DNA of 64,000 bases, from the NCBI GenBank assembly GCA_000997385.1, contig LCBT01000004.1, forward strand, positions 8,002 to 72,001, in the 5' to 3' direction. The stretch is from Candidatus Daviesbacteria bacterium GW2011_GWA1_41_61. GTDB taxonomy: Bacteria > Patescibacteriota > Microgenomatia > Daviesbacterales > UBA10151. Made by a program: the position numbers and the translations under genes. The notes below the pieces were generated by a model. It saw only the letters and a list, made by a program, of their open reading frames with translations, was not told the origin of the DNA and searched no databases. Shown one piece after another: positions 10,306 through 24,778 of the stretch (the stretch's first letter is position 1; every line of letters begins with the position of its first letter).

Positions 10306-10944
10306 ATGCATACTGTGGGCCAGATTTTAAAAGAAACAAGAGAAGTCAAACTTTATACTTTAGAAGAGGTAGAAAAAGCGATCAAGATTAGAAAAGAACT
10401 TTTAATAGCCCTGGAAAAAGATGATTACTTAAAGCTTCCTCCCCCCACCTTTGTTAGAGGTTTTATCAGAAACTATGCCAAGTTTTTAGATTTGGATGGA
10501 GAGAAGCTGTTGGCTATCTATAGGAGGGAATTTTCCGAGAAAAAACACAAGCCTTATATTATGGATGCTTTTGTTAACCCAGTTAAAAAAAGGAAGCTAG
10601 ATATTACTCCCAGTAGGGTTTTAGGAGGGGTGGTATCTTTGATGATTATCACCTTTTTTGTTTACCTTTGGTTACAGTACCGCCAGTTTATTGGTCCTCC
10701 ACCGCTGACTGTGATCTCCCCTTCTGATCAGTTGACCACAGATAACCCCACGGTGATGGTGGAAGGCAAAACTGATCCGGAGGTGGTGGTGATGGTCAAC
10801 AGTCAGGAGATCCCAGTAGACAGCAGTGGAGAGTTTCAAAAGGAGATTACTTTATCCTCTCAAGTAAATAAATTAACTATTGTGGCTACTTCCAAATTTG
10901 GGCAAAAAACAGCACTTGAAAAAGTGGTTTATCTTAAGAGATAA
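10306..10944 (+). CDS. rodZ: RodZ-like cytoskeleton protein (XRE HTH + TM + C-terminal domain)
   Basis: N-terminal LGQILKETRE...IRKELLIALEKDDYLKLPPPTFVRGFIRNYAKFLDLD matches RodZ HTH region; single TM; C-terminal beta-rich domain. Confidence 0.6.
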   Translation: MHTVGQILKETREVKLYTLEEVEKAIKIRKELLIALEKDDYLKLPPPTFVRGFIRNYAKFLDLDGEKLLAIYRREFSEKKHKPYIMDAFVNPVKKRKLDITPSRVLGGVVSLMIITFFVYLWLQYRQFIGPPPLTVISPSDQLTTDNPTVMVEGKTDPEVVVMVNSQEIPVDSSGEFQKEITLSSQVNKLTIVATSKFGQKTALEKVVYLKR

Positions 10945-10954
10945 TAGTAGAAAT

Positions 10955-11254
10955 ATGGATATTTTGCAGTTATCTTTAGTTTTTCTAATTTCTTTAATTG
11001 CCATTTTGCTGGCCTTTTTAGGTACTCAGTTTTTCTATGTTTTAAAAGACTTAAGAGTTTCTTTGCAGAAGTTAAATAAAATTTTAGACAGTACCGGCAG
11101 TATTACTGAAAACATTCAAAAACCAGTAGAGGCAGCAGCTAATCTAACTTCTGCAGTTGAGGCAGGGGTGAAAGCTGTTAAAATGGGGATTGAAGGAAGT
11201 GAGCAGGTTAAAAAGCTTTTTAATAGAGACCACAAAGAATTTAAATCAAAGTAG
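10955..11254 (+). CDS. small membrane-anchored coiled-coil protein (DUF948-like)
   Basis: Start moved to ATG 10955 just after rodZ stop; N-terminal TM then coiled coil; ends overlapping alaS convergently. Confidence 0.4.
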   Translation: MDILQLSLVFLISLIAILLAFLGTQFFYVLKDLRVSLQKLNKILDSTGSITENIQKPVEAAANLTSAVEAGVKAVKMGIEGSEQVKKLFNRDHKEFKSK

Positions 11255-13151
11255 CATAAATTCTTCTTACTCCTGATCCAGCTGATTCTTCTTTGGTAAT
11301 ATTAAGGTGTCCTAACTGTGAGGTGTTTTTAACATGGGGTCCACCACAGATCTCTATTGAAAATGGAAATCCTTCGACTCGCTCCGCTCGCTCAGGATGA
11401 CTGTTTCCACCGATGGTGTAAACAGTCACTTTATCCCCATATTTGGCTCCAAACAACCCTAAAGCGCCTAATTTTAAAGCCTCTTTTTTATCCATCACCT
11501 CAGAGGTAACTGTTAAGTTTTCCTGAATTTTTTGATTAACCAAATTTTCCACTTGTTTACTCTGTTCCTCAGTTAATTTTTCCGGATGAGAAAAATCAAA
11601 CCTTAATCTTTCCGAAGTTATATTACTGCCCTTTTGAGTAACATGTTCTCCTAAAATCTGTCTTAAAGCAGCGTGAAGCAGGTGAGTAGCAGTGTGGTAT
11701 TTAATAGCTACTTCGGATTGATCCACCAAACCTCCCTTAAACATTCCCGTCGAAGCAGTCCTGGACAACTCCTTATGCTTTTCAAACTCAACCTGAAATT
11801 CTTCTTGATCAATTTTTTGCCCTTTTTCAGCCAGAAGTTCTTCAGTGACTTCTATTGGAAATCCATATGTTTGATATAAATCAAAAGCATTTTTGCCGTT
11901 AACTTCGCTTAGTTTTTCAATCTCTTTAAAACCTTTGACCAAAGACGAACCGAATTTTTTCATTTCTTCAACGATCGTTTGGTGTAACTGTTCTTTAGTC
12001 TGCAAACTGTTTTTATTAATAGAAAATAACCAATCATACATTTCTAGAATTCTGTCACATATGGTGGTAATTTCTTCTACAAACTTCAGATCTCCAGTTA
12101 GTTGATAAAATTTAATGGCTGATCTTCTAAGTAATCTTCTTAAGATATATCCTTGTAGTTTATTAGAGGGAAAAACCCCATTAATAATGAGAAATGTAGC
12201 ACCTTTTAAATGGTCAGTAATAATTTGCATAGAAGATCTATTATCGGTATATTTTTTGTTTGTTACTTTTTCAATTTCTTCTATAATTGACCAGAAAAGA
12301 TCAATTTTAAATACATCAGCATCTTTATTTGAGACAGCAACAAGTCTTTCTAATCCGCCTCCAAAATCAACATTTTTATTGGGTAACTTTTTTAAAGAGC
12401 CATCAGCTATTTTTTTGTACTCCATAAAAACAGAATTTCCTATTTCTAGAAAATGTCCACAGTCACAGTTGGGATGGCAATATTTTCCATATTTAGGATC
12501 ATGCTTTATTTCTTCAAATTCATAAAACATCTCTGAGTTGGGACCTCCTGGTTCTCCAGTAGGCATGGCCTCAATACTTCCAGTTCTACTCCACCAGTTT
12601 TTCTTTTGGTCATAATAAAAAATTCTCCCTCCCTGCATCCCTACCTCTGCAGCATACTCTAAAGAATCTAAGGCTACTTCTTTAGCTCCAACATTTTGTT
12701 GAGAAAATAACTCCTTCCAGATTTGGACAGATTCGGTATCTTTGGGAAGATGATATTTTTCATCTCCAGCAAAAACAGATACATAAAGTTTATTTGGATC
12801 AATACTAACCTCCTTTATCAGAAATTCAAAAATCCAAGGGAGCTGTTCCTTTTTAAAGTAATCTCCTAAAGACCAGTTCCCCAGCATTTCAAAGAGGGTG
12901 GTATGGCGGTTATTTCCAACATCTTCAATATCTTGGGCTCTAAAACATGGTTGAGAATTAACTAATCTGGTTCCTTCAGGGTGTTTCTGCCCTAAAAGAT
13001 AAGGAACCATTGGTTGCATCCCTGAGGAAGTAAAAAGAGTAGTGGGATCGTTTTCTGGTACTAGGGGAGCAGAGGGGATAACTTTGTGCCCCTTTTTAAT
13101 AAAGAAATCTAAATATTTTTGTCGGAGTTCCCTTGATGTCATATGAACCAA
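11241..13151 (-). CDS. alaS: alanine--tRNA ligase, compact form without C-Ala domain
   Basis: Class II catalytic core (FTSSGMQP, CFRAQDIEDVG), tRNA-recognition (FLIINGVFPSNKLQGYILRRLLRR), editing-site zinc motifs HTATHLLH and CGGPHV; ends at ...GVRRIYATLI, 636 aa. Confidence 0.9.
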   Translation of the reverse strand: MVHMTSRELRQKYLDFFIKKGHKVIPSAPLVPENDPTTLFTSSGMQPMVPYLLGQKHPEGTRLVNSQPCFRAQDIEDVGNNRHTTLFEMLGNWSLGDYFKKEQLPWIFEFLIKEVSIDPNKLYVSVFAGDEKYHLPKDTESVQIWKELFSQQNVGAKEVALDSLEYAAEVGMQGGRIFYYDQKKNWWSRTGSIEAMPTGEPGGPNSEMFYEFEEIKHDPKYGKYCHPNCDCGHFLEIGNSVFMEYKKIADGSLKKLPNKNVDFGGGLERLVAVSNKDADVFKIDLFWSIIEEIEKVTNKKYTDNRSSMQIITDHLKGATFLIINGVFPSNKLQGYILRRLLRRSAIKFYQLTGDLKFVEEITTICDRILEMYDWLFSINKNSLQTKEQLHQTIVEEMKKFGSSLVKGFKEIEKLSEVNGKNAFDLYQTYGFPIEVTEELLAEKGQKIDQEEFQVEFEKHKELSRTASTGMFKGGLVDQSEVAIKYHTATHLLHAALRQILGEHVTQKGSNITSERLRFDFSHPEKLTEEQSKQVENLVNQKIQENLTVTSEVMDKKEALKLGALGLFGAKYGDKVTVYTIGGNSHPERAERVEGFPFSIEICGGPHVKNTSQLGHLNITKEESAGSGVRRIYATLI

Positions 13152-14586: not shown

Positions 14587-15936
14587 ATGGATACAAAAGA
14601 AAATAATCTTCTAACCAGTTCTCCAGCTGCGCTTAAGGCTACTAAAGTCCCCAAGTCTGTTGACCCTCCCCAAAAGACGGCAGAAGAGAAAGCTCCCCAG
14701 CAGGAAGACCGGGAAATAGAAGAACAGATTAAAGCTGACAACAAAAAGGTGGTGCATGCTGTCAGGATAGTGGTAGAAGCAGGGATGATTAGCGCCTTAT
14801 ATTTAAGTCGGAGTCCTTATTTCTTACCTTTGGCGTTGGTTATTACCCTTAACGAAGTTATAAGCCAGACCTTAATTTACCTTGCTAAGAGTAATCAGCT
14901 CATAAAAAAAATTACACCTTATGTTTATATATTTACTTCCATCAGCACTATTTCTTCTGTAGCCTATTTTACTGGGTGGGTGATAAATGATTTCTATTTA
15001 ATTTATTTAATTCATGTCTCCTCAGCTACAGTAGGGTATGGTTTAAAAGTGGGCCTGGTGAGCTTTCTTTTAGCTGTTGCTACCTATACTAGCTTACTGC
15101 ATCTGTATCAGGCTCCGTCTTTGACTTATCTGCGTCTGCCCATCCTCTCTATTTTAGTCTTCAGGTTATTGGTGACTCAAAGAAGATATGAAAAAATTGA
15201 AGGGTTGTTAAGTAATGTTTTGAATATTGAGAAAGCCAAAGGGGATTTTATCTCTATTGCCTCTCATAACCTAAGGACACCAGTCGCAGCCATTTATGGT
15301 TATATTGATTTACTTTTAAGAGGTGATACTGGCAAGCTGGGCCAAGAGCAGTCAGATTATGTTAAAAAGATTAAAAATAATAATACTGAACTGGAAAGGT
15401 TGACGGAACAGTTGTTACAGATTTCTATTTTAGAAGTGGGGAAGGAGGTTAATTTATTCAAGCAGCCCAGTCAGATAGAAGTAATCATTGAGGGGGTGGT
15501 GGATAATTTTGCTCCCGTAGCTTCAGCTAAGGGTGTGGAGATTGTATTTAAAAAGGAGAATTATCTGCTGTCTTTGGTGGATATAGATGTGGAAAAGATC
15601 AAAGCAGTCATTTTAAACTTAATTGACAATGCCGTAAAATACACCGATAAAGGGAAGGTCGAGATTAAAGCTAAAGAAGAGGGAGATTTTATAGCTGTTT
15701 CCGTTACCGATACTGGCAGCGGTATCTCCAAAGAAGATTTACCCAAACTGTTCACTAAATTTTTCCGCTCCGGTAATATTCTAGTCTATAATAAGGTAGG
15801 TACAGGACTAGGCCTTTATTTAGGAAAGAAAATTGTTGAACTTCATGGTGGGAGTATCAGGGTAGAGAGCGTAGAAGGAGTGGGTTCCACATTTATCTTT
15901 ACCATACCCATAGCCAAAACGAATAACTTCTTATGA
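14587..15936 (+). CDS. sensor histidine kinase with polytopic N-terminal membrane domain
   Basis: H-box IASHNLRTPVAAIYGY, N/G boxes (LIDNAVKYT, GTGLGLYLGKKIVELHGGSIRVES); several TM helices N-terminally. Confidence 0.85.
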   Translation: MDTKENNLLTSSPAALKATKVPKSVDPPQKTAEEKAPQQEDREIEEQIKADNKKVVHAVRIVVEAGMISALYLSRSPYFLPLALVITLNEVISQTLIYLAKSNQLIKKITPYVYIFTSISTISSVAYFTGWVINDFYLIYLIHVSSATVGYGLKVGLVSFLLAVATYTSLLHLYQAPSLTYLRLPILSILVFRLLVTQRRYEKIEGLLSNVLNIEKAKGDFISIASHNLRTPVAAIYGYIDLLLRGDTGKLGQEQSDYVKKIKNNNTELERLTEQLLQISILEVGKEVNLFKQPSQIEVIIEGVVDNFAPVASAKGVEIVFKKENYLLSLVDIDVEKIKAVILNLIDNAVKYTDKGKVEIKAKEEGDFIAVSVTDTGSGISKEDLPKLFTKFFRSGNILVYNKVGTGLGLYLGKKIVELHGGSIRVESVEGVGSTFIFTIPIAKTNNFL

Positions 15937-16556
15937 TGTATCTAATAGGGGCATTTTTAGCAGTTTCTATCATTACCTTGGAGATAATACTTTTCCAAAA
16001 GAGATCTTTTTATAAAAAAAATGTCTCTTTAATACACCGCCTTAATAAAAATTTAGAAATTCTTAAGGCTTTATCATTTCTCACTTCTTCCAAGGCCTCC
16101 TCTTTATCAGAGGATTTGCAACAATTGGCAATTTATTTTTCCCCGCAAGATTTATATCAGGATTTTACCGTAGTCTTATTAAAAGATACAGGAAAAGGTA
16201 TAAAGGGGGTGTTGAGATATCATTATAATCAGTCTTTGGAGTCAAAGCCAGAGATTAAGGAAGACTCTACTTTAACCAAAGCTGAAGATTGTTATTTAAA
16301 TAAGATAGAGAACAATTTTTCAGTAGTTGGCGACTCCTCGTCCTCTGTTTATCCTTTGGCAGCGCTGTTCCCTCTAAGATATTCCTCCCAAAACTGGGGA
16401 GTTTTAATGGTTTTTGCGACTAATGATTTTTCTAAACAGGACTTAGATTTTCTTAAGGCAGTGTCAGGTGTGGTCGTTTTATTGCTGAAAAAATTTGAAT
16501 TTAGACAGTCTTTGACAGACGGCGAGCAAGTAGCAGGAGTAGACCAAGAATGGTAA
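15933..16556 (+). CDS. membrane-anchored GAF-like domain protein
   Basis: N-terminal TM, degenerate GAF-like C-terminus; ATGA overlap with the kinase gene. Confidence 0.4.
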   Translation: MMYLIGAFLAVSIITLEIILFQKRSFYKKNVSLIHRLNKNLEILKALSFLTSSKASSLSEDLQQLAIYFSPQDLYQDFTVVLLKDTGKGIKGVLRYHYNQSLESKPEIKEDSTLTKAEDCYLNKIENNFSVVGDSSSSVYPLAALFPLRYSSQNWGVLMVFATNDFSKQDLDFLKAVSGVVVLLLKKFEFRQSLTDGEQVAGVDQEW

Positions 16557-17188
16557 TATTTTTGACCTTGGGTTTAGTATGGCTGATAATAGAGTTAGTC
16601 CGGGTATTTCTCCTATGGAAGAAAAACCGAAGAGCTCTGTCTGCTTTGGTGAAGAGTCAAGAAGAGCTAGGTTACCTCTCTTTTATCTTTAGCGAGGTTT
16701 TTGCTCAAAAGTATCCGGTGGAGGTGATTTTTCCCAAGCTGCTTAATCGCCTCAGGGAAAGCCTCGGTTGGACTTATCACAGCATTTTCCGTCTGGATGA
16801 GGAAAGGCAACTAATGATAGTCCGTTTTACTGGATACTTGCCTGATTGGTATATGGAAAAGTTTAGTACCAAGGTGTTGGTAAAAGTGGGCGATGCTGCC
16901 ATCGGCAGGGCAGTGTCCACCAGCCAACCGGTAATTATCAATGCTTCAATTGTTGATCCCCGCTTCAAAAGCGTTACTCAAGTAGCCCAGCAAACAGGTT
17001 ATAAATCCTTAACTTGTTGCCCGATGATTGGCAGGCTCAAAGTATATGGAGGTTTTTGTGCTTATAGTCAGTATGAGAATATCTTTACCCTTCACGATAG
17101 CCAATTTTTATTAACTTGCGCTTATCTTTATGGAGCCATCTTAGAAACGATTTTATTGCAAGAATATCTGAAAAAGAAGGATAAATAG
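16550..17188 (+). CDS. membrane-anchored GAF domain protein
   Basis: VGDAAIGRAVSTSQPVIINASIVDPRF resembles GAF ligand-binding core; 7-nt overlap with previous gene. Confidence 0.6.
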   Translation: MVIFLTLGLVWLIIELVRVFLLWKKNRRALSALVKSQEELGYLSFIFSEVFAQKYPVEVIFPKLLNRLRESLGWTYHSIFRLDEERQLMIVRFTGYLPDWYMEKFSTKVLVKVGDAAIGRAVSTSQPVIINASIVDPRFKSVTQVAQQTGYKSLTCCPMIGRLKVYGGFCAYSQYENIFTLHDSQFLLTCAYLYGAILETILLQEYLKKKDK

Positions 17189-17247
17189 CCTTAAGACCTT
17201 AAGATTAGACCTTGACACTACAGGTAAGTTTGTATATCCTCTAATTA

Positions 17248-17634
17248 ATGGATAATTCATCATCTAATAAGAAAAAGATTCTCATCGTGGAGGATGATTT
17301 TTTTATAAGAGACTTGTATGAGATACAAGCTCGTAAAACCGGTTATGAGGTGGTAACTGCCACTGACGGCGAAGAAGCTTTGGCTAAAGTAAAAGAGGAG
17401 CTTCCCAACCTGGTTATTTTGGATATTATGTTGCCTAAAATGGATGGGATCAGTGTTTTAAAATCCCTTAAAGCGGACGGGAAGTTGTCTGGGATTCCTT
17501 GTGTTTTGGTAACTAATCTGGAAGACCCTCTTAAAGAACGGGAAGCTATGCAGGAGGGAGCAGCAGCCTATTTTTTAAAGATTAAAACTACTCCGCAACA
17601 ACTTATCGGCACTGTAGCTCAGTATTTAACTTAG
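17248..17634 (+). CDS. stand-alone response-regulator receiver (CheY-like)
   Basis: KILIVEDDFFIRDL ... LVILDIMLPKMDG ... receiver fold, no output domain. Confidence 0.85.
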   Translation: MDNSSSNKKKILIVEDDFFIRDLYEIQARKTGYEVVTATDGEEALAKVKEELPNLVILDIMLPKMDGISVLKSLKADGKLSGIPCVLVTNLEDPLKEREAMQEGAAAYFLKIKTTPQQLIGTVAQYLT

Positions 17635-17830: not shown

Positions 17831-20194
17831 TTGCCCATGAACTTTTTTGAAAATATCGCTGCCCAACTACCTTTTGGCAAGAAATCCGACCCAGCGGAGT
17901 ATTTCTTTGTCCTCAATATTGGTTTGTCGGAAGTTACAGCTGCTGTTTGGGCTATCTACGGACAGGAAATCGAGATTCTTAGCCAGGCCACTTTAACCTA
18001 TGAGGGAACAGATGATTTGTTGGAAAAAGGCTACCAGGTTTTAGATAAGTCATTGGGAGCTTTGGAAATTGAGCCACAAAAGGTGCTTTTCGGAGTTCCC
18101 GAAACCTGGAGCTTAGATGACGATCTGAAAGAACCTTATTTAAAACTTCTGAGGAAGATGCTTAAGAAATTTGGCCTTCAGCCTTTGGCTTATGTGACTA
18201 CTACCAACGCCCTCTCTTTCTTCTTACAAAGGCAAGAAGGAGCTCCTCAAACAGCTATCCTTATCGGGATTGGTGATTTTTTAGAAGTTACTTTGACCAA
18301 AGGCGGGAAGATGCTGGAAAGTCGAGCCGCCAAACGCTCGGGGTCTTTGTTTGAAGACATTGAAAAAATCCTTAGCCAGTTTACGGAAGTAGAGGTTTTG
18401 CCTTCAAAAATCCTTCTCTATCCCACTAACAAAGAAGAAGATTTGGCCAAAGTTAAAGATGATCTGATGTCTTTCCCCTGGATGCAAAGGCTTTCCTTCT
18501 TACACTTTCCCAAAATAGATCTTTTAAATGAAGATATTGCTCTTTCCTCAGTAGTGTTGTCAGCTGCTTGCGAGATGAATCCTCATATCAACTTTAAACA
18601 TCACTTTGTTTTATCAGCTTCTCCTTCCCCCTTACCTTCCCGCAGCCATAGTTTAAAACCGCCGGAGGAAGAATTGGGGTTTGTGGAAGGGGATATTAAG
18701 GAGCATTTGGGAAAAATCAAAGGAGATGAAAGTAAGTCCCAAAAGCCTTTAGAAAGTGAAGAGATGAGTGATCAAAAAGCGGGGTTTACCTCCCAATTAG
18801 TTTCTCCGGATTTGCCCGAAAGCGCCTATGAATCGGGACCAGAAGAGGAAGAATTGTTAGCTGATTCTGAAGACTTTGAATATTCCCGGCCTTTAACTGG
18901 ACGGTCTCATCATTCTGCTCCTGATTCATCCAAGTCTTTTGGTACTCAGTCCAGCTTTTCTTTACCGGCCGCTTTAGGGAAAGCCACCTCTTTGATGACT
19001 GCCCTAAAACCCAAAGAAGGAGTATCGGCAATATCCGGAAGATTACTAACAACCAAGCTGTTAATCCCGCCGGTTGTTTTGCTGCTTTTGGCCGGAGCTT
19101 ACCTTTTCTTCTCTCGCGCTGAGGTGGCCATTTTTGTAGAGCCAAAAGTATTAGAAAACAGCGCTGAGATTGTGGCTGATCCTAAAGCCACAGAGGTTAA
19201 TGAAGAAAAAAGGATTATTCCCGGTGTGATTATTGAAACTACCTTAAGCGGAACTGGTAAGGCTGTAGCTACGGGTAAAAAACAGATCGGCGATCCGGCT
19301 CGCGGCAAGGCTATAATTTACAATTTAACAGCTTCCAAAATTTCACTTTCCCAAGGGACAGTTTTAACCTCTTTCGAGGGCTTAAAGTTTGCTGTAGATT
19401 CTTCAGTGCAAATTGCTTCTCAATCATCTTCTGTTGGAGCAGACTTTACCACTGTTATTAAACCGGGAAAATCAGAGGCAGTGGGCGTTACCGCTAAAGC
19501 CATTGGCCCGGAAGGAAATTTGCCGGGAGGAACAGATCTTTTAGTGACGGGATATCAAAAGTCTCAGGTTGTTGCCCGGATAGAGGAGGCGTTGTCCGGA
19601 GGAACCTCCAAAGAAGTAACTGTTGTTACCTCCGATGACCAGAAGAAACTTCAGGCCAAAGTGTTGGATGACCTTCGCCAAAAAGCTCAGGAGGAGCTTA
19701 AGACTAAACAATCAGGGGATCAGAAGGTTATCGCTGAGGCTTTAAGTGTGGTCGAAGGCAAATATAAGTTTAATAAACAAATTGGGGATCAATCTAGTGA
19801 GTTTTCTCTAAATGCCACAGTTCATTTTAAGGGGATTGCTTACTCAGATACTGATCTTAAGACTGTGGTTTCTAAGTTAGTCCAAACCAATATTCCGGAA
19901 GGTTTTGGTTTAAGCCCGGCAGATATGGAAACTCAAGCTGACGTTTTTAAGGTAGATAAAGATGGAGGGCTTGTTTTTAAGGCTAAGTTTAAAGCAAAGC
20001 TTATGCCAAAATATAATCTGGAGGAGTTAAAAGCTAAGATAAAAGGAAAAACTGTTGAGGAAGTAGCAGCTCAAATTAAAGAGCTGGAAAGTGCTATTGG
20101 TTCGGAAATCAAGCTTAGCCCGAGCTTGCCTGCTCCGCTGGGCAGACTGCCCTTTGTGGAAAAAAATATCGCCATCTCCGTCTCTCCAAAATAG
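17831..20194 (+). CDS. FtsA/PilM-like actin-fold domain fused to disordered linker, one TM helix and a large extracytoplasmic domain
   Basis: N-terminal VLNIGLSEVTAAVWAIYG (phosphate-1-like) and ILIGIGDFLEVTL (phosphate-2-like) as in FtsA/PilM; Ser/Pro/Glu-rich linker; TM LLIPPVVLLLLAGAYLFF; about 350-aa C-terminal domain of unknown fold. Confidence 0.5.
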   Translation: MPMNFFENIAAQLPFGKKSDPAEYFFVLNIGLSEVTAAVWAIYGQEIEILSQATLTYEGTDDLLEKGYQVLDKSLGALEIEPQKVLFGVPETWSLDDDLKEPYLKLLRKMLKKFGLQPLAYVTTTNALSFFLQRQEGAPQTAILIGIGDFLEVTLTKGGKMLESRAAKRSGSLFEDIEKILSQFTEVEVLPSKILLYPTNKEEDLAKVKDDLMSFPWMQRLSFLHFPKIDLLNEDIALSSVVLSAACEMNPHINFKHHFVLSASPSPLPSRSHSLKPPEEELGFVEGDIKEHLGKIKGDESKSQKPLESEEMSDQKAGFTSQLVSPDLPESAYESGPEEEELLADSEDFEYSRPLTGRSHHSAPDSSKSFGTQSSFSLPAALGKATSLMTALKPKEGVSAISGRLLTTKLLIPPVVLLLLAGAYLFFSRAEVAIFVEPKVLENSAEIVADPKATEVNEEKRIIPGVIIETTLSGTGKAVATGKKQIGDPARGKAIIYNLTASKISLSQGTVLTSFEGLKFAVDSSVQIASQSSSVGADFTTVIKPGKSEAVGVTAKAIGPEGNLPGGTDLLVTGYQKSQVVARIEEALSGGTSKEVTVVTSDDQKKLQAKVLDDLRQKAQEELKTKQSGDQKVIAEALSVVEGKYKFNKQIGDQSSEFSLNATVHFKGIAYSDTDLKTVVSKLVQTNIPEGFGLSPADMETQADVFKVDKDGGLVFKAKFKAKLMPKYNLEELKAKIKGKTVEEVAAQIKELESAIGSEIKLSPSLPAPLGRLPFVEKNIAISVSPK

Positions 20195-20225
20195 TTTATG
20201 GTACACTACTTAAAACTTATAGAGT

Positions 20226-20606
20226 ATGAAATACTTAGGCGTTGATTGGGGCTTAAAAAGGGTTGGGTTGGCTATTTCCGAAGGGAAAATCGCTTCTCCT
20301 TTGGCTGTACTGAGTGTTAACAGTTTGCAGGATGGCTTAGACAAGCTAATCTCTTTTATCAAGAGGGAAGAAATTGATATAGTAGTCATCGGTAAACCTG
20401 AAGGGGAGTCAGGGAAAAGAGTTGAAGCGGTGGTCAAAAAACTAAAGAAAGTTGGGTTGAAGGTAATCGAAGCTGATGAAACCCTCTCTACCCAAGAAGC
20501 GAAAAAATTTCTGCTTCGGATAGGAGTAAGCCGAAAATCACGGCGACTGGATGACGCCTGGGCGGCAACCATTATTTTACAGAGGTTTTTAGATGAACAA
20601 CCTTAA
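20226..20606 (+). CDS. ruvX: Holliday junction resolvase-like YqgF/RuvX
   Basis: MKYLGVDWGLKRVGLAISEG... RNase H-like YqgF signature, 126 aa. Confidence 0.85.
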   Translation: MKYLGVDWGLKRVGLAISEGKIASPLAVLSVNSLQDGLDKLISFIKREEIDIVVIGKPEGESGKRVEAVVKKLKKVGLKVIEADETLSTQEAKKFLLRIGVSRKSRRLDDAWAATIILQRFLDEQP

Positions 20607-21600
20607 TCCAAGTTATCAAATAAAACATCGACAAAGGTGGCTTCTTTTAATTTTGTTTTTAGTGGTTATCTTGGCGGGGTTGAAATTTTATATAGATTAC
20701 TTGCTTTCCCCGGTGGATGCTCAAAAAACCACCTTACAAACTTTTGTCGTCGAGAGTGGAGAATCTACTTTAGGAGTAGCCCAAAGGTTAGAAAAGGAGG
20801 GTTTGATTAAATCAGCTAACGTTTTTGCTATTTTAGCCAGAAGCAGGAAAAGCCAAGGGCAAATTCAAGCCGGCGAGGTTGAGCTCTCTCCATCCTTAAA
20901 CGCTTCAGAGACTTTAAAAAAATTAATGCTGGGAGTATCTGACAAACGGACCACTTTAGTGGAAGGATGGAGAGTAGAAGAGATGGCCCAAGAACTAAAT
21001 TCCAAATTAAAAATTGAAAAGTCGGATTTTTTGGCGGTAGCGAAAGAGGGCTATATGTTCCCGGACACTTATTATTTTAGTCCCAAGGCTTCAGCTTCTG
21101 ATGTGGCTGATGTGATGAAAGATAATTTTAACCAAAAATATGATGAGAAGCTCCAAGCCAAAATTAAAAAATTAGGTCTAAGTGTAGATGAGGGAGTAAT
21201 TTTGGCTTCAATTGTGGAAAGAGAGGCTCGTTCAGAGGAGGATAGAAAGATGGTAGCCAGTATTTTACTCAAAAGGTTTAATATCGGCATGCCCTTGAAT
21301 GCTGATGCCACAGTGCAATATGCTTTAGTCCCCCAGGGAGCCAAAAGCCCGCCTGCCGGGGGATGGTGGAAAAGATATTTAACTAGAGATGATTTAAAAA
21401 TAGAGTCTGCCTTTAATACCTATCTTTATCCGGGCTTCCCGCCTGCTCCTATTGCCAATCCCGGGTTTTCTTCTATTCAAGCCGTGGCTGAGGCTAACAC
21501 GGCTACCCCTTACTTATATTACTATCATGATCCTCAAGGCCGGTCTTATTATGCTAAAACTTTGGAAGAACATAATGAGAATGTGGTCCGCTACCATTAG
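20593..21600 (+). CDS. mltG: endolytic murein transglycosylase MltG (YceG-like)
   Basis: N-terminal TM, YceG core, C-terminal YLYYYHD...AKTLEEHNENVVRY typical of MltG. Confidence 0.8.
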   Translation: MNNLNPSYQIKHRQRWLLLILFLVVILAGLKFYIDYLLSPVDAQKTTLQTFVVESGESTLGVAQRLEKEGLIKSANVFAILARSRKSQGQIQAGEVELSPSLNASETLKKLMLGVSDKRTTLVEGWRVEEMAQELNSKLKIEKSDFLAVAKEGYMFPDTYYFSPKASASDVADVMKDNFNQKYDEKLQAKIKKLGLSVDEGVILASIVEREARSEEDRKMVASILLKRFNIGMPLNADATVQYALVPQGAKSPPAGGWWKRYLTRDDLKIESAFNTYLYPGFPPAPIANPGFSSIQAVAEANTATPYLYYYHDPQGRSYYAKTLEEHNENVVRYH

Positions 21601-21691
21601 GGGTTGTAAGTTATACCAGGATCCAGGATAGATGATCACTTGATTGACACCAATCCCTCTTTGTGAGTTAATAAAAGTAGTGTCAAAGAAG

Positions 21692-24600
21692 ATGAATCCG
21701 TCTGAAACAAAACTAAATTCTATCCTCAGTAAACTCTCCTCCCAGCAAAATAAAAAGAGAAAGGTTGCTATTTTAATCTTCTTCCTTAGCTTAATTTCCT
21801 TTCTATCAATAACCACCTTTTCTCCCTTTAAAGATAAACTCTTTTCTTCTCTTTATCCCAAACGTTTTTCCTTTGCTGCTGGAAATACTTATTATGTTGC
21901 TACCATTGGTTCTGACTCAAATACCGGAACCATTGATCAACCCTGGCGTACTGTAAAGTATTCTTTGTCTAAACTTCAACCCGGTGATACCCTTTATCTT
22001 AGAGGTGGTACTTACTATAATGAAGGCGGTACTACCATCAGTTTGAAAGGTGCATCCACCAGTTGGATTATCTTACAATCCTACCCCGGAGAAAGGGCAA
22101 TCATTGACGGAGGCGTACCTGATTTTAGCAATGCTCCCAATAATGCCTGGGAACTGGTTGATTCCTCAACCGGCCTTTACAGGAGCGTAAGCAGCAATTT
22201 CAGCGGTTCTGATCTTTCCAGTAATGCCACGTTGGGCGGCTGGCTTCTTGATTCCAACACCCAACTTGTTCATTACGGCCATTCTACCAGCGAAAATCCT
22301 GATTCTTTAAACTCCCAGAACTATACTGTCAGTAAATTTAATCCTGTCTACATCGGGCCGGGTGTCCAGCTAAGAGGCGATGGTCATATATACATTCGTT
22401 TAACTCCCAATTCTTATAATCAAATTGCCCAGGATGGAAGCACCCTGCCGCAAATTCCCGCTGATACTAATCCCAACAACAACCGCATTTCGATCTTTAA
22501 TACCAGCACCCTTTATACTCTTAGCGGTGCCAGTTATCTGGCATTTAAAAATATTGATTTTGTTCACGCCGTTAAACTCTTTGATCTTCAAAACAGCACG
22601 AATCACATTCTTTTTGACCAAGATAAATTTAAATTTGGTTCATACGGCATCAACACCGAACCTACCTCGGGAACTTCTGATATTGAGGTAGCTTCCAGCG
22701 AATTTACGAACGGAGTACCTGACTGGTTGCGCTGGACCGACACTAAAAATATCGCTTATGATAGCTCTCCCGCTTATCCTGAGTTCCAATCAGTAGCCAT
22801 AGACGGCACTCCTTCGAATTTCTACATACACGACAATTATATGTACCGCCTCTTTGATGGTCTTCACTTTAAGGATGGGACGGCAAACACACAGTTTATC
22901 AACAACGTAATCGCTTTAAGCCACGATGATGCGTTTGAAATTAATCCTACGGTGCAAAATGTGGAGATTGCTCATAACATAATGCGCCATGTCCATAACG
23001 GTTTTGGCGTCAACCGCAGCAGCAGCTGTACCGGAGTGGGGGTTATCAATATGCACCATAATGTTATGGATACCTCAATGCCACAGCGCCAAGGCAGGGA
23101 AGGCAACTCCCGAATTTCTCAATATCCTCTCTGGTCACCCTATTCTCCTTTTGCCTCACACGGCAGCGGCTGTGATACCTACAAACTACGTTTTTACAAC
23201 AACACAATTGTGGGACGAAGGGCGACCAGCAGTTCTGATTCCTTAGGACCGAGAAACATGACCGCCTCCACAGACCTTTATGTCTACAACAATCTCTGGT
23301 ATGCCATCAATAATGTGAGCGCACTTTCTAACCATCAGGAAAGCTCTGGCGCTCACTATGACGGTGAAGCTTTCTGGCAGTCTAACCCTTCCGGTCAATC
23401 TTTACTTTTAAATTTCGGAAATGGCAGCAGTTTCACTTCTCTTTCCAGCTACACTTCAACAATCGGAACTACCTGGTTAAAATCAGGTATTCAAACCGAC
23501 CCGGGATTTTCTCTTTCTGCTATTGATTCTAATAACTATGACCCTGCGACAGTATGGAGCATTTATCAACCAACAAACCCTGCATTTTTTACTACCGAAG
23601 TTGACACCACAGGTCTGGGTTGGCCTGAGGCAGATGGCATTACTTACCGGGGGGCAGTTGGATTAAATTCTACACCCGCTGCAATAAACACCCCTTCTCC
23701 TACTCCTATTATTTCTACACCTACTCCTACTTCCCAACCCACTGCTACTCCTACCCCCACTCCTACTCCCAAACCTACTACTACACCCATTCCTATCTCT
23801 ACTCCCACGCCAACCTCATCTCCTTCAGATGCAGTAACCTTTAATCCTGTAGCCGACAGTTTCGTCGAGGCCTCCTATCCTGATAAAAACAATGGCAGTA
23901 GCAGTGCCTTGGGGGTTGATGGAAGTCCTATTGAAATAAGCTATCTCAACTTTGATTTTGGATCTTTAGCAGGTAAAACTGTTACTTCGGCAAAACTTCG
24001 TATATATTTAACAAATTTCTCCACAGGAACCCAAAATATTAAGTCAGTTACAAATACCAGTTGGAGTGAATCCAGCTTAACTTACAACAATAAGCCAACA
24101 ACCGGGACGACAATAGCTTCATTTGCCGGTAACAGTTCCAGTACCTGGAAAGAGGTTGATTTAACTCCATTTCTATCTGATAAAGCAGGACAAACCTTTT
24201 CCTTAGCAGTTGAACAGTCAGCTACAGATGGAATTGATTTCTCGTCTCGGGAAGCAATGAACAAACCTCAAATTGTAGTAACTTTAGCTGGCGGGATTAC
24301 AGGAAATACCTCTTCTCTGTTACCTACAGCTGATGCCGAAGTTGAGAAAAACTATCCTGATAAAAACTATGGCAGTTCAACTGCTTTAGAGGTAGATAAC
24401 AGCCCGGTAGAGATAAGTTATCTTAAATTTAATTTAACTCCTTTTGCAGGAAAAGAGATTGTTTCTGCTAAATTAAAACTAAGAGTCAGGAATTCTTCCA
24501 GCGGCATACAATATGTCAGACTTGTTGAAGATACAATTTGGAGTGAATCCAGCTTAACCTACAATAACAGGCCGCAAGCTTCAACTACAATCACCCAGTT

Positions 24601-24778
24601 AAATGGAGGAAAAAGTAGCACCTGGATTGAGATTGATGTAACTTCTGCAGTTTTGACAAAGCTTGGAGGATATCTCTCCCTCCTGGTTGATTCAACCTCA
24701 AGTGATGGTTTTGGTTTTTATTCAAAAGAAGCTTCAACATCAACATATAGACCGACATTAATTATTACAAATAAGTGA
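21692..24778 (+). CDS. secreted/surface right-handed beta-helix (pectate-lyase-fold) protein with Pro/Thr linker and two C-terminal carbohydrate-binding-like (DNRLRE-type) repeats
   Basis: Signal anchor; GNTYYVATIGSDSNTGTIDQPWRTVKYSLSKLQPGDTLYLRGGTY N-cap typical of beta-helix proteins; PT-rich linker (TPTPTSQPTATPTPTPTPKPTT); two about 150-aa repeats sharing YPDKN.GSS.AL.VD.SP.EISYL.F....AGK...SAKL......W.ESSLTYNN.P. Confidence 0.6.
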   Translation: MNPSETKLNSILSKLSSQQNKKRKVAILIFFLSLISFLSITTFSPFKDKLFSSLYPKRFSFAAGNTYYVATIGSDSNTGTIDQPWRTVKYSLSKLQPGDTLYLRGGTYYNEGGTTISLKGASTSWIILQSYPGERAIIDGGVPDFSNAPNNAWELVDSSTGLYRSVSSNFSGSDLSSNATLGGWLLDSNTQLVHYGHSTSENPDSLNSQNYTVSKFNPVYIGPGVQLRGDGHIYIRLTPNSYNQIAQDGSTLPQIPADTNPNNNRISIFNTSTLYTLSGASYLAFKNIDFVHAVKLFDLQNSTNHILFDQDKFKFGSYGINTEPTSGTSDIEVASSEFTNGVPDWLRWTDTKNIAYDSSPAYPEFQSVAIDGTPSNFYIHDNYMYRLFDGLHFKDGTANTQFINNVIALSHDDAFEINPTVQNVEIAHNIMRHVHNGFGVNRSSSCTGVGVINMHHNVMDTSMPQRQGREGNSRISQYPLWSPYSPFASHGSGCDTYKLRFYNNTIVGRRATSSSDSLGPRNMTASTDLYVYNNLWYAINNVSALSNHQESSGAHYDGEAFWQSNPSGQSLLLNFGNGSSFTSLSSYTSTIGTTWLKSGIQTDPGFSLSAIDSNNYDPATVWSIYQPTNPAFFTTEVDTTGLGWPEADGITYRGAVGLNSTPAAINTPSPTPIISTPTPTSQPTATPTPTPTPKPTTTPIPISTPTPTSSPSDAVTFNPVADSFVEASYPDKNNGSSSALGVDGSPIEISYLNFDFGSLAGKTVTSAKLRIYLTNFSTGTQNIKSVTNTSWSESSLTYNNKPTTGTTIASFAGNSSSTWKEVDLTPFLSDKAGQTFSLAVEQSATDGIDFSSREAMNKPQIVVTLAGGITGNTSSLLPTADAEVEKNYPDKNYGSSTALEVDNSPVEISYLKFNLTPFAGKEIVSAKLKLRVRNSSSGIQYVRLVEDTIWSESSLTYNNRPQASTTITQLNGGKSSTWIEIDVTSAVLTKLGGYLSLLVDSTSSDGFGFYSKEASTSTYRPTLIITNK

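What the first reader, a model, noticed from the sequence alone, without database searches (positions are those of the whole stretch)
17831..20194. Actin-fold (FtsA/PilM-like) domain fused through a disordered linker and TM helix to a 350-aa extracytoplasmic domain
The N-terminal 250 aa carry phosphate-1 and phosphate-2-like motifs of FtsA/PilM/MreB-type ATPases. Then follow about 130 aa rich in Ser, Pro and Glu, one TM helix, and a large external domain with no obvious family. This single-polypeptide cytoskeletal-to-envelope fusion is not a standard architecture. It sits next to ruvX and mltG (cell-wall remodelling).
Basis: partly seen in the sequence, partly recalled or inferred. Interest (0 to 1): 0.55.

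Follow-up and report, generated by a model that had tools for sequence, protein, structure and literature searches.

The report
FtsA-derived domain fused to envelope protein
This gene from an uncultured groundwater bacterium (Candidatus Daviesbacteria) joins a stripped-down copy of the cell-division protein FtsA, through the membrane, to an outside domain shaped like a phage baseplate part; related bacteria encode the two halves as separate neighbouring genes, which points to an undescribed FtsA partner in this large group of tiny bacteria.

Summary
The ORF is real. From the ATG at 17837 it is 785 aa and 100% identical to KKR80715.1 (Candidatus Daviesbacteria, "hypothetical protein").

Architecture, all checked:
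- Cytoplasmic minimal actin-fold (ASKHA) domain: AF2 pLDDT 86; Foldseek top hits PilM and FtsA.
- Acidic disordered linker, then one TM helix.
- A 360-aa ectodomain whose barrel belongs to the phage Baseplate_J / GlxA-barrel superfamily.

At least 110 full-length representatives keep this layout, so it is not a chimera.

Main new result: in other CPR bacteria (e.g. Saccharibacteria) the same TM+ectodomain protein has only a small N-domain. It lies directly downstream of a separate, complete ftsA-like gene in the same alaS–…–ruvX–mltG cluster (46 of 55 loci). The fused N-domain is specifically homologous to that FtsA-like protein (hhalign E 2e-6; plain HMMER hits on 15 loci). However, it has lost the 1C/2B-sized insertions, and its nucleotide-binding motifs are not conserved.

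In most Microgenomates the gene overlaps a sortase gene by 4 nt; this window lacks that sortase.

Best reading: a Rosetta-stone fusion marking a CPR-wide, undescribed FtsA-coupled envelope scaffold, probably acting in division and wall remodelling. The function is inferred, not shown.

The parts
17837..20194 (+). Coding sequence of the fusion protein 'X' (785 aa from ATG 17837). The mechanical ORF starts at TTG 17831 and gives 787 aa. Residue numbers in this report use the 787-aa numbering.
   Evidence: ORF listing. 100% identity of the 785-aa product to KKR80715.1/P0381. Met3 conserved in at least 90% of homologues.
17891..18580 (+). Cytoplasmic minimal ASKHA (actin-fold) domain, aa 21-250. 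It has two RNase-H-like lobes with no 1C/1B/2B-sized insertions, is FtsA-derived, and its nucleotide-binding motifs are not conserved.
   Evidence: AF2 model and secondary structure. Foldseek against PDB. hhalign to CPR FtsA-like proteins, E 2e-6 to 4e-6. hmmsearch with the FtsA-like profile hits X ORFs. Motif frequencies.
18611..19030 (+). Acidic, Ser/Pro/Glu-rich variable linker (aa 261-400), presumably disordered.
   Evidence: Composition. Low conservation and high gap fraction. Family-wide median net charge -8 and length 50-215 aa.
18671..18700 (+). Short conserved linker motif ELGFVEGDIK (aa 281-290), a candidate linear binding motif.
   Evidence: G283, F284, G287 and D288 are conserved in at least 90% of Daviesbacteria members. 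GFxxGD occurs in 114 of 348 family members, and an 'LGFS..EE' variant occurs in others. It is also present in sister proteins P0390, P0391 and P0393, but in only 1 of 51 FtsA-coupled split proteins.
19043..19111 (+). Single transmembrane helix (aa 405-427), oriented N-in/C-out.
   Evidence: Hydropathy. Single segment in 335 of 348 members, with flanking K+R bias N-side > C-side in 248 versus 33.
19112..20191 (+). Extracytoplasmic domain (aa 428-787). It resembles Baseplate_J wedge proteins along its whole length in the 3Di alphabet. It ends in two beta-beta-beta-alpha repeats.
   Evidence: AF2 pLDDT 86.2, pTM 0.53. Foldseek against PDB: 340-380-column alignments to wedge proteins of cyanophage A-1(L), XM1, phi812, diffocin, Mu and Pa193, E 2e-6 to 2e-4, but TM only ~0.2. 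Foldseek against BFVD: top hits are Baseplate J-like.
19295..19615 (+). Beta-barrel sub-domain (aa 489-595) of the Baseplate_J / GlxA-barrel type. This is the only part with sequence-level family signal.
   Evidence: Pfam PF04865 E 1.4e-3 to 2.2e-4. 21 of 31 members hit PF04865. PHROG_6 'baseplate wedge subunit' E 1.2e-3. Local Foldseek hit to GlxA, E 3e-6. Sister proteins pass the Pfam threshold for PF21110 GlxA barrel or PF04865. hhalign to Mu gp47 picks the equivalent region but is weak, E 0.05.
19595..19708 (+). Invariant SGGTSK motif followed by a long amphipathic helix (aa 589-626). It sits at the position of the 'GG + helix' element that follows the barrel in wedge proteins.
   Evidence: Conservation. 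Helix H177-202 in the model. Register with 'fSGGa' of Mu gp47.
20226..20606 (+). ruvX (YqgF-family nuclease), 31 nt downstream of X. It is an operon partner in nearly all loci.
   Evidence: Pfam RuvX E 6e-24. Present downstream in 77 of 85 loci. Small gaps.
20593..21600 (+). mltG (YceG-like lytic transglycosylase), overlapping ruvX by 14 nt.
   Evidence: Pfam YceG E 6e-76. Present in 75 of 85 loci and also downstream of the split version.
11241..13151 (-). alaS, the upstream synteny anchor of the cluster. It is inverted here, and a two-component module lies between it and X.
   Evidence: Pfam tRNA-synt_2c. AlaRS lies next to X in 78 of 85 loci and upstream of ftsA-like/ECTO in the split lineages.

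Best explanation
X is a Rosetta-stone fusion of two proteins that other CPR/Patescibacteria encode as adjacent genes, overlapping or closely spaced in many loci. The first is an FtsA-type actin-like protein. The second is a bitopic envelope protein ('ECTO': small cytoplasmic head, acidic linker, one TM helix, Baseplate_J/GlxA-barrel-like ectodomain).

In Microgenomates (Daviesbacteria, Collierbacteria and relatives) the FtsA-like part has been reduced to a ~230-aa two-lobed ASKHA core. It has no 1C- or 2B-sized insertions and lacks the C-terminal tail that looks like a membrane-targeting amphipathic helix in the stand-alone proteins. Its phosphate-1, phosphate-2 and adenosine motifs are not conserved.

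It therefore most likely acts as a nucleotide-independent docking module, permanently membrane-anchored, rather than as an ATPase or dynamic filament.

Proposed mechanism (inferred):
- The cytoplasmic FtsA-like core plugs into the FtsA/FtsZ division scaffold or an equivalent cytoplasmic partner.
- The flexible acidic linker and TM helix carry that positional information across the membrane.
- The wedge-like ectodomain, which may self-associate through its long helix and C-terminal repeats, organises wall-acting enzymes encoded in the same operon. These are MltG in all lineages, a translationally coupled sortase in most Microgenomates, and a LysM-CHAP hydrolase in the three split-lineage loci examined.

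Shown here: fold of both halves, topology, family-wide conservation of the fusion, homology to the stand-alone FtsA-like protein, the split arrangement, and operon structure.

Inferred: interaction with FtsA/FtsZ, loss of ATP binding, oligomerisation, and a role in division or wall remodelling.
For: 1. Fold: the N-domain is ASKHA, with PilM and FtsA as best structural matches.
2. Specific homology to CPR stand-alone FtsA-like proteins. hhalign gives prob 87-89%, E 2e-6 to 4e-6 over up to 129 columns, including a shared 'LPSKILL ... W..KLPF..P' block. Plain hmmsearch with the FtsA-like profile hits only X ORFs in 1.04 Mb of Microgenomates loci (15 hits, E 3e-6 to 5e-4).
3. Those stand-alone proteins are true FtsA homologues: TIGR01174 E 1e-34, Pfam FtsA, and hhalign to E. 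coli FtsA prob 98.6%, E 6e-16 over 351 columns.
4. The split arrangement exists. In L090 and L091 ftsA-like and ECTO overlap by 1 nt, followed by ruvX-mltG. Of 55 metagenomic loci with enough sequence, 46 have ECTO downstream of ftsA-like and 6 more are divergent neighbours. The commonest order is alaS-ftsA-ECTO-ruvX-mltG.
5. The same ectodomain is in both forms: the C-domain HMM scores E 1e-23 to 1e-77 on the relatives found.
6. No separate ftsA-like gene lies near X in 87 loci.
7. The fusion is invariant. All 110 full-length representatives among the top 150 of 1,383 clusters have TM plus ectodomain.
8. Nucleotide motifs are not conserved. The P1 Asp position is E 51% / N 26%, and the P1 and P2 glycines are below 45%. 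The FtsA-like relatives keep DIGGGTTD and CGGGTGLP.
9. Operon with wall enzymes: X-sortase overlap of 4 nt in 38 of 65 loci, and active-site TLxTC sortases with an N-terminal anchor. mltG is always downstream, and ftsK and a RodZ-like gene lie upstream.
10. In TM7x the annotated ftsA and ftsZ have distant locus tags. This fits ftsA residing in this cluster rather than beside ftsZ.
Against: - No experimental or localisation data exist for any member.
- Sequence homology to FtsA covers only the second lobe (aa 105-235). X against E. coli FtsA directly is not significant (E 0.44).
- Foldseek does not separate PilM/FtsA from Ppx/GppA, ROK kinases or CoaX.
- X lacks the 2B-sized insertion. From textbook knowledge, 2B binds the FtsZ tail and 1C recruits late divisome proteins, so any interaction cannot be the canonical one.
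- No ftsZ or ftsQ lies within 5 kb of the split ftsA-like genes. Whether that gene is the cell's only FtsA is unknown.
- Whether Microgenomates keep another stand-alone FtsA elsewhere could not be checked.
- Conserved gene order in small CPR genomes may partly be inheritance rather than function.
- The ectodomain's Baseplate_J similarity has TM-scores of only ~0.2. No pairwise sequence match to any phage was found.
Confidence: 0.55

Rival explanations
1. X is primarily a platform for a sortase or for surface-protein and pilus anchoring. The ectodomain positions or activates the co-translated sortase. The cytoplasmic ASKHA domain couples this to secretion or some other cytoplasmic cue, with no role in division.
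For: The X stop codon overlaps the sortase start by 4 nt in 38 of 65 loci and lies within 6 nt in 50 of 65. The X-sortase pair persists in L088, where ruvX and mltG are not downstream. The sortases have an N-terminal anchor and TLxTC catalytic motifs, so they face the same side as the ectodomain. A sortase family is reported as near-ubiquitous in Microgenomates but patchy elsewhere in CPR (PMC6744442), which parallels the distribution of the fused form.
Against: The window itself and about 20 of 85 loci lack the sortase at this position. The split ftsA-ECTO lineages show no sortase in the cluster at all, so the sortase link is lineage-specific and secondary. X has no LPXTG-like sorting signal (0 of 348).
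Confidence: 0.2
2. The N-domain is still a working actin-like ATPase or filament former: a membrane-integrated FtsA or MreB-like cytoskeletal element anchored by a real TM helix instead of an amphipathic helix.
For: ASKHA fold with FtsA and PilM as top hits. The window protein retains 'NIGLSEV' and 'GIGD' remnants of the phosphate loops. The interdomain-cleft-proximal residues W40, G88, P90, W93, P191, W217, F223, H225, P227 and K228 are invariant and could bind some ligand.
Against: Across 348 members the catalytic Asp and loop glycines are not conserved. The adenosine-motif 'GGG' of the FtsA-like relatives is replaced by 'Y-x-T-K'. There are no 2B- or 1C-sized insertions. No Pfam or NCBIfam ASKHA model detects the domain.
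Confidence: 0.1
3. X is a GspL/PilM-PilN-type assembly-platform protein of a type IV filament machine (pilus or competence).
For: The topology is the same as GspL and BfpC, and the best single Foldseek hit is PilM (PMC4471445).
Against: No pil or gsp genes were detected in the window ORFs scanned or in the annotated homologous loci. CPR type IV pilus loci already contain their own PilM/PilN/PilO (PMC6744442; PMC7143001). The ectodomain is not the ferredoxin-like PilN/GspL type. Profile homology is to FtsA-like proteins, which score far better on ftsA than on pilM models.
Confidence: 0.05
4. The gene is a phage-derived element: a prophage remnant, contractile-injection-system part, phage receptor or exclusion factor.
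For: Baseplate_J-like ectodomain. Some public records name homologues 'baseplate J/gp47 family protein'.
Against: It lies between alaS and ruvX-mltG-rpoBC in a fixed housekeeping context in all loci examined. No other tail or baseplate genes are nearby. There is no tblastn match in 50,697 phage records, none in IMG/VR, and no PADLOC hit. The barrel also occurs in the cellular protein GlxA.
Confidence: 0.03

Closest known systems
FtsA (bacterial actin-like division protein; TIGR01174 / PF14450)
   Same: ASKHA fold. The second lobe of X is profile-homologous to CPR stand-alone FtsA-like proteins, which in turn align along their full length with E. coli FtsA. X occupies the genomic position that ftsA-like plus its partner gene occupy in sister lineages. 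By eye, the N-terminal 'KLL.K ... ALDIGTEFVKA' of the FtsA-like proteins resembles 'DKLTAQ ... ALNIGLSEVTA' of X.
   Different: X is ~170 aa shorter. It has no 1C (SHS2)- or 2B-sized insertions and no C-terminal tail of the kind that looks like an amphipathic membrane helix in the FtsA-like proteins; a linker plus a true TM helix takes its place. Nucleotide motifs are degenerate. No FtsA, SHS2_FTSA, PilM or MreB model detects it. It is not next to ftsZ.
GspL (T2SS), BfpC, and the PilM-PilN pair (type IV filament assembly platforms)
   Same: Same logic and topology: a cytoplasmic actin-like, non-catalytic domain, one TM helix and an outside domain. GspL is regarded as the fused equivalent of PilM+PilN (PMC4471445), just as X is the fused equivalent of FtsA-like+ECTO. 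PilM is the top Foldseek hit.
   Different: The ectodomain is different (Baseplate_J/GlxA-barrel-like rather than ferredoxin-like). There is no pilus or secretion gene context. CPR pilus loci have their own PilM/N/O.
Baseplate wedge protein J family (P2 gpJ, Mu gp47, T4 gp6, T6SS TssF; PF04865)
   Same: The barrel (aa 489-595) gives Pfam and PHROG signals at or near threshold. Foldseek alignments span nearly the whole ectodomain with prob ~1.0. An 'SGG' motif plus a long helix follows the barrel, as in Mu gp47.
   Different: TM-scores are ~0.2, so sub-domain arrangement differs. There is no pairwise sequence match to any phage. It is membrane-tethered and extracytoplasmic rather than part of a tail. 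No partner baseplate genes are present. The genomic context is core housekeeping.
GlxA beta-barrel domain (PF21110; membrane-bound copper oxidase of Streptomyces)
   Same: Local structural match of ~140 columns at E 3e-6. Sister ECTO proteins pass the Pfam threshold for PF21110. GlxA is likewise an N-terminally anchored extracytoplasmic protein of a monoderm (own knowledge).
   Different: GlxA's catalytic propeller is absent. Only the barrel is shared.
Bitopic divisome and elongasome linkers (FtsN, FtsQ/DivIB, ZipA, RodZ)
   Same: One-pass membrane proteins whose cytoplasmic end binds a cytoskeletal protein (FtsA, FtsZ or MreB) and whose outer domain acts in the wall compartment. This is textbook knowledge. 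A RodZ-like gene and ftsK lie in the same conserved region.
   Different: No sequence or fold similarity to any of them was detected. The functional analogy is inferred from gene coupling only.

Membership tests
ASKHA (actin/Hsp70/sugar-kinase) superfamily | Two RNase-H-like lobes, each beta-beta-beta-alpha-beta-alpha-beta-alpha | tested here: met
   AF2 secondary-structure order E23-30, E34-43, E46-56, H59-75, E84-89, H103-114, E117-123, H124-134, then E141-147, E150-157, E160-168, H173-182, E193-198, H205-213, E228-231, H236-249. 625 PDB matches at E<=1e-3; all 50 listed are ASKHA proteins.
ASKHA (actin/Hsp70/sugar-kinase) superfamily | Conserved phosphate-1 (DxG), phosphate-2 (DxGGG) and adenosine (GG) motifs for ATP/Mg binding | tested here: not met
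   Across 348 members the P1 Asp position is E 51% / N 26%, the P1 Gly is H 33% / G 32%, and the P2 glycines are 43% and 32%. The adenosine 'GGG' of relatives is replaced.
FtsA | Recognised by FtsA models (TIGR01174, PF14450) or homologous to bona fide FtsA | tested here: inconclusive
   No direct hit, and E. coli FtsA gives E 0.44. The link is significant only through CPR FtsA-like intermediates (E 2e-6), which themselves match FtsA.
FtsA | 1C (SHS2) subdomain inserted in lobe I and 2B subdomain in lobe II | tested here: not met
   The lobes are 112 and 109 aa with no insertions. hhalign places a ~50-aa insertion in the FtsA-like protein opposite a gap in X. There is no SHS2_FTSA hit.
FtsA | C-terminal amphipathic membrane-targeting helix; gene beside ftsZ/ftsQ | tested here: not met
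   X continues into a linker plus a true TM helix. No ftsZ or ftsQ was seen in the loci examined.
PilM / GspL-type platform proteins | PilM_2/GspL model hit and co-location with pilN/O, pilB/C or gsp genes | tested here: not met
   No Pfam or NCBIfam hit. No such genes in any locus. The structural resemblance to PilM is only at fold level.
PilM / GspL-type platform proteins | Topology: cytoplasmic actin-like domain, single TM helix, extracytoplasmic domain | tested here: met
   This is a resemblance in design, not evidence of membership.
Baseplate_J (PF04865) wedge proteins | Pfam model at or above the gathering score (21.1 bits) | tested here: inconclusive
   The window protein scores 18.4 bits as a whole and 21.0 bits as the isolated domain. 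21 of 31 members hit at E<=0.1. Some relatives pass: P0386 at 27.5 bits, and P0113 and P0116 in precomputed annotations.
Baseplate_J (PF04865) wedge proteins | Overall wedge-protein fold | tested here: inconclusive
   Foldseek gives prob ~1.0, E 1e-6 to 1e-4 and 340-380 aligned columns, but TM ~0.2 and rmsd 25-37 A. Only the barrel aligns compactly (117 columns, rmsd ~7 A).
Baseplate_J (PF04865) wedge proteins | Encoded with other baseplate/tail genes (gp25/W-like, gpI/TssG-like, hub, sheath, tube) | tested here: not met
   Housekeeping neighbours only. No match in phages or IMG/VR.
GlxA beta-barrel domain (PF21110) | Pfam model at or above the gathering score (27 bits) | tested here: inconclusive
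   Not reported for the window protein. Met by sister ECTO proteins P0397, P0398 and P0399 at 31-33 bits. There is a structural local match to GlxA.

The most novel reading that the evidence does not exclude
The TM+ectodomain protein ('ECTO') is a previously unrecognised, CPR-wide core partner of FtsA. It would be a lineage-specific link between the cytoplasmic division scaffold and extracellular wall remodelling, filling the role that FtsN or FtsQLB-type proteins play elsewhere. It would be built from a fold otherwise known from phage and contractile-injection-system baseplate wedges. The Microgenomates fusion would be the natural Rosetta stone proving a direct FtsA-ECTO contact. Its wedge-like ectodomain may assemble into a ring-like platform that also recruits the sortase.
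Probability: 0.3. Interest if true: 0.85.

Novelty: new variant of a known kind. Interest (0 to 1): 0.66.

Why it matters
CPR/Patescibacteria make up a large share of bacterial diversity, yet their cell biology is almost unknown. It is unclear how their division scaffold is coupled to cell-wall remodelling.

This locus gives a concrete, testable candidate. A bitopic protein is genetically coupled to ftsA across CPR lineages, and in Microgenomates it is physically fused to an FtsA-derived domain. Fusion/split pairs are among the strongest purely genomic predictors of physical interaction.

The locus also shows a baseplate-wedge/GlxA-type barrel used as a core extracytoplasmic module in a housekeeping operon with MltG and, in most Microgenomates, a sortase. 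This widens the known uses of that fold.

Finally, it warns that 'baseplate J/gp47 family protein' annotations in CPR genomes are not prophage markers. Cultivable Saccharibacteria carry the split version, so the hypothesis can be tested experimentally now.

Tried and rejected
- Chimeric assembly: rejected. The same architecture occurs in hundreds of independent assemblies.
- Direct family assignment of the N-domain by sequence: nothing from Pfam, NCBIfam, PDB sequence profiles, or per-member Pfam scans at E<=10.
- Recent phage origin of the ectodomain: no tblastn hit in GenBank phages and none in IMG/VR. There was no defence-system hit either.
- Type IV pilus PilM role: rejected on context and on the literature.
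- A 'naturally split' Microgenomates version (P0208 plus a 378-aa gene in L088): this turned out to be a single frameshift inside the linker, and frame 0 reads through. Short family members such as P0121 are contig-end fragments.
- X as a sortase substrate: 0 of 348 members have an L[PA]xT[GAS] motif in the last 60 residues.
- Small N-domain of split ECTO as a remnant of ASKHA beta4-alpha2-beta5-alpha3: hhalign chooses that register, but E is 0.23 and prob 0.3%, so it is unsupported. There was no PDB sequence match either.
- GFVxGxD linker motif as ancestral to all ECTO proteins: only partly true. It is present in X (114 of 348) and in P0390, P0391 and P0393, but in only 1 of 51 FtsA-coupled split proteins.
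- hhalign of the ectodomain against Mu gp47 alone: weak (E 0.05) and covers only the barrel.
- Literature searches for Baseplate_J in CPR or non-phage contexts, and for CPR FtsA partners, found nothing relevant.

Full report

Yes. The window has an uninterrupted ORF at 17831..20194 (+), 787 aa from a TTG. Homologues align from the third codon (Met3 conserved in at least 90%). The 785-aa product from ATG 17837 is 100% identical to public protein P0381, which is KKR80715.1, KKR83336.1, KKR93233.1 and KKS14721.1 from Candidatus Daviesbacteria. NCBI calls it 'hypothetical protein' and UniRef calls it 'Baseplate protein J-like domain-containing protein'.

Residue numbers below use the 787-aa numbering. 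The protein has four zones:
- A conserved N-domain, aa 1-260.
- A variable, gappy linker, aa 261-400 (Ser 18%, Glu 12%, Pro 8.7%).
- A single hydrophobic segment, aa 405-427.
- A conserved C-domain, aa 428-787.

Across 348 family members, 335 have exactly one such segment. Flanking Lys/Arg favour an N-in, C-out orientation in 248 members against 33.

ruvX follows at 20226-20606 and mltG/YceG at 20593-21600.

**2. It is not an assembly chimera**

- The first homologue search returned 483 proteins, most covering 100% of the query at 700-830 aa, from Daviesbacteria and other Microgenomates.
- A scan of species-representative genomes found 119 relatives.
- An exhaustive HMM search with the N-domain alone found 1,383 clusters at 50% identity (632 at E<=1e-30). 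Among the 150 listed, all 110 proteins of at least 650 aa also have the TM segment and the C-domain.
- A divergent member used as query leads to Collierbacteria.

The fusion is therefore an old, fixed feature of the Microgenomates group.

**3. The N-domain**

No sequence method recognises it: Pfam, NCBIfam, PDB sequence profiles and per-member Pfam scans all fail.

With a 32-sequence alignment, AlphaFold2 gives a confident model (pLDDT 86.2, pTM 0.84). It consists of two beta-beta-beta-alpha-beta-alpha-beta-alpha lobes of about 110 residues each, with no room for accessory subdomains.

Foldseek against the PDB returns only ASKHA proteins among the 50 listed. PilM is first (5eou_A, E 5e-10, TMq 0.58) and FtsA is close (3wt0, 3wqt; TMq 0.53-0.61). 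Ppx/GppA, ROK kinases and CoaX score similarly. The fold is certain, but fold search alone does not settle the sub-family.

The canonical nucleotide-binding motifs are not conserved:
- The phosphate-1 Asp position is Glu 51% / Asn 26%.
- Its glycine is His 33% / Gly 32%.
- The phosphate-2 glycines reach only 43% and 32%.

A different set is invariant: W40, G88, P90, W93, P191, W217, F223, H225, P227 and K228. I infer a non-catalytic docking module. This inference was not tested.

**4. The C-domain**

AlphaFold2 gives pLDDT 86.2 but pTM 0.53, as expected for an elongated multi-subdomain protein.

Foldseek against the PDB gives 340-380-column alignments at prob ~1.0 and E 2e-6 to 2e-4. The targets are baseplate wedge 'J' proteins of cyanophage A-1(L), XM1, phi812, diffocin, Mu and Pa193. 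The viral library gives the same picture. TM-scores are only ~0.2 (rmsd 25-37 A), so the order of elements is shared but their spatial arrangement is not.

Sequence support is limited to the barrel at aa 489-595:
- Pfam Baseplate_J scores 18.4-21.0 bits against a threshold of 21.1.
- 21 of 31 members hit it.
- PHROG_6 'baseplate wedge subunit' scores E 1.2e-3.

A comparison with Mu gp47 alone is weak (E 0.05). It does pick the equivalent barrel and ends at the shared 'SGG' motif, which precedes a long helix.

The same barrel matches the N-terminally anchored Streptomyces oxidase GlxA. Sister proteins pass the Pfam threshold for the 'GlxA beta barrel domain' PF21110.

There is no pairwise match to any of 50,697 phage records or to IMG/VR contigs, and no defence-system match. 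This is a deep cellular branch of the fold, not a prophage remnant.

**5. Genomic context in Microgenomates**

Across 85 loci the order is strongly conserved: (RNase J)-ftsK-RodZ-like-alaS-X-[sortase]-ruvX-mltG-(rpoB-rpoC).

A sortase lies between X and ruvX in 65 of 85 loci.
- The X stop codon overlaps the sortase start by 4 nt in 38 of 65, and the gap is at most 6 nt in 50 of 65.
- The sortase-to-ruvX gap has a median of 2 nt.
- These sortases have an N-terminal anchor and TLxTC-type active sites.
- X has no sorting signal (0 of 348).

The window belongs to the minority without the sortase, and none was detected anywhere in its 64 kb. Uniquely among the 85 loci, it has a two-component module inserted between alaS and X.

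[quoted passage not shown] They also report that CPR type IV pilus loci carry their own PilM/N/O (PMC6744442). A complete Microgenomates genome has PilM inside its single pilus locus (PMC7143001). X is therefore not the pilus PilM.

**6. The decisive finding: a split version**

Searching with the most divergent ectodomain found (from L088) reached proteins of 430-650 aa in other CPR lineages. One is from Candidatus Saccharibacteria.

Most of these proteins have the same TM+ectodomain (C-domain HMM E 1e-23 to 1e-77). In place of the ASKHA domain they have a conserved head of about 85 aa ('IYLE.DEEITSVIDKLK...') followed by an acidic linker. A few of the hits are N-terminally truncated or fused-type X proteins.

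In their genomes this gene lies immediately downstream of a separate 420-430-aa gene, overlapping it by 1 nt in L090 and L091. It is followed by ruvX, mltG and a LysM-CHAP hydrolase, with alaS upstream.

That upstream gene is a divergent but complete FtsA:
- TIGR01174 E ~1e-34, the best of all ASKHA models.
- Pfam FtsA E 1e-13 to 1e-15.
- hhalign to E. coli FtsA prob 98.6%, E 6e-16 over 351 columns.
- Intact DIGGGTTD and CGGGTGLP motifs.

A metagenome scan with this FtsA-like profile shows the arrangement is general. Of 55 loci with at least 1.5 kb downstream, 46 have the ectodomain gene downstream on the same strand (37 within 157 nt). Six more have it as a divergent neighbour. The commonest pattern is alaS-ftsA-ECTO-ruvX-mltG. 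No ftsZ or ftsQ lies within 5 kb. In TM7x the annotated ftsA and ftsZ have distant locus tags.

**7. X's N-domain derives from that FtsA-like protein**

- hhalign of the X N-domain profile against single FtsA-like sequences gives prob 87%, E 4e-6.
- Against a three-sequence profile it gives prob 89%, E 2e-6 over 129 columns (X 105-235 against FtsA-like 203-379).
- The alignment includes a distinctive shared block, 'LPSKILL...W..KLPF..P'. It places the FtsA-like 'CGGGTGLP' opposite X's 'Y-x-T-K', and a ~50-aa insertion (2B-like) opposite a gap.
- As a control, X against E. coli FtsA is not significant (E 0.44).
- Independently, plain hmmsearch with the FtsA-like profile over 1.04 Mb of Microgenomates loci plus the window hits only X ORFs (15 loci, E 3e-6 to 5e-4). 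It finds no separate ftsA-like gene near X.

Three lines of evidence now agree: an equivalent genomic position, a shared ectodomain, and specific homology of the cytoplasmic part. X is therefore best explained as a fusion of the ftsA-like gene with its downstream partner, accompanied by reduction of the FtsA part.

**8. Mechanism (inferred)**

Fusion/split pairs predict physical interaction. In split lineages FtsA probably binds the cytoplasmic head of ECTO. In Microgenomates the contact has become covalent.

The reduced FtsA-like core would act as a fixed docking module toward the division scaffold. The linker and TM helix relay position across the membrane. The wedge-like ectodomain would organise the wall enzymes of the operon, namely MltG, the sortase and CHAP hydrolases.

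A short motif in the linker (ELGFVEGDIK, aa 281-290) is a candidate peptide ligand. It occurs in 114 of 348 members and has variants in others. It is not universal, being found in only 1 of 51 split proteins.

Rival readings are listed separately with their evidence: a sortase platform unrelated to division, a still-active ATPase or filament, a GspL-like pilus platform, and a phage element.

**9. Comparison with known systems and novelty**

In design X parallels GspL, the fused equivalent of PilM+PilN (PMC4471445). It also parallels bitopic divisome linkers such as FtsN, FtsQ, ZipA and RodZ. It is a member of none of them.
- It fails FtsA's defining 1C/2B subdomains, membrane helix, model hits and ftsZ adjacency.
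- It fails the PilM/GspL context.
- It meets Baseplate_J only at the barrel and fold-order level, without any baseplate gene context.

Searches of the held literature found no description of this family, of Baseplate_J outside phage, contractile-injection-system or T6SS contexts, or of a CPR FtsA partner. The library is incomplete, so prior description elsewhere cannot be excluded.

I rate it a new variant of a known kind, namely actin-like/bitopic envelope couplers. Interest is moderate to high because it nominates a testable, lineage-wide division and wall component for the CPR.

Noticed in passing
window 14587-17634: A two-component-like module sits between alaS and X: a histidine kinase (HisKA+HATPase_c), two small GAF or GAF-like proteins with overlapping starts and stops, and a receiver-only response regulator. 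Among 85 homologous loci, only this window has a response regulator at this position.
   Followed up: partly
window 20195-20225 (X-ruvX intergenic) and the whole window: The sortase gene that is translationally coupled to X in 65 of 85 related loci is absent here. No sortase was detected anywhere in the 64 kb by tblastn at E<1e-5. The loci lacking it mostly also have alaS inverted, which suggests one rearrangement event.
   Followed up: partly
window 1-64000: GC skew is persistently positive (+0.1 to +0.3) over most of the window, and most ORFs of at least 100 aa lie on the + strand. This resembles the strand compositional disparity reported for another Microgenomates genome (title of PMC7143001).
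   Followed up: no
window 21644-24778: A 1,044-aa predicted secreted protein lies directly after mltG. It has a pectate-lyase-like beta-helix N-terminal region, a Pro/Thr-rich linker and two CBM96 carbohydrate-binding modules (E 1e-64). It is not present at this position in the other loci examined.
   Followed up: no
window 10306-10944 and 6866-8971: A RodZ-like protein (HTH_25 + Glucodextran_B domain) and ftsK are conserved upstream of alaS and X in most loci (62 and 27 of 85 within the fetched flanks). The whole region looks like a division and cell-wall neighbourhood.
   Followed up: partly
window 17837-17890 (aa 3-20 of X): The N-terminal peptide 'M.F.(D/E).(I/L)(T/A)AQLPFGKK' is highly conserved in Daviesbacteria, yet it is modelled as disordered (pLDDT <50). 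By eye it resembles the N-terminal 'KLL.K' extension of the stand-alone CPR FtsA-like proteins. It may be a second linear motif.
   Followed up: no
L088:1234-3440: One divergent family member appears split into a 294-aa and a 378-aa gene. A single frameshift in the linker restores one ORF, which includes a 'DLGF' motif. This is probably a sequencing or assembly error or a recent pseudogenisation. In this locus X-sortase is followed by NUDIX and HD genes instead of ruvX-mltG.
   Followed up: yes
L089:10412-11602, L090:10567-11529, L091:4196-4787: In the split (Saccharibacteria-type) lineages a LysM-CHAP peptidoglycan hydrolase follows mltG. In L089 and L090 this is followed by obg. It is another wall-cleaving enzyme in the same cluster.
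   Followed up: no
record titles (e.g. L006, L011, L012): Many species-representative MAGs carrying this Daviesbacteria-type gene are titled 'uncultured Gammaproteobacteria bacterium' in their TPA records, and one homologue is labelled 'Spirochaetia bacterium' (P0338). These look like placeholder names or mis-binning, not real taxonomic spread.
   Followed up: no
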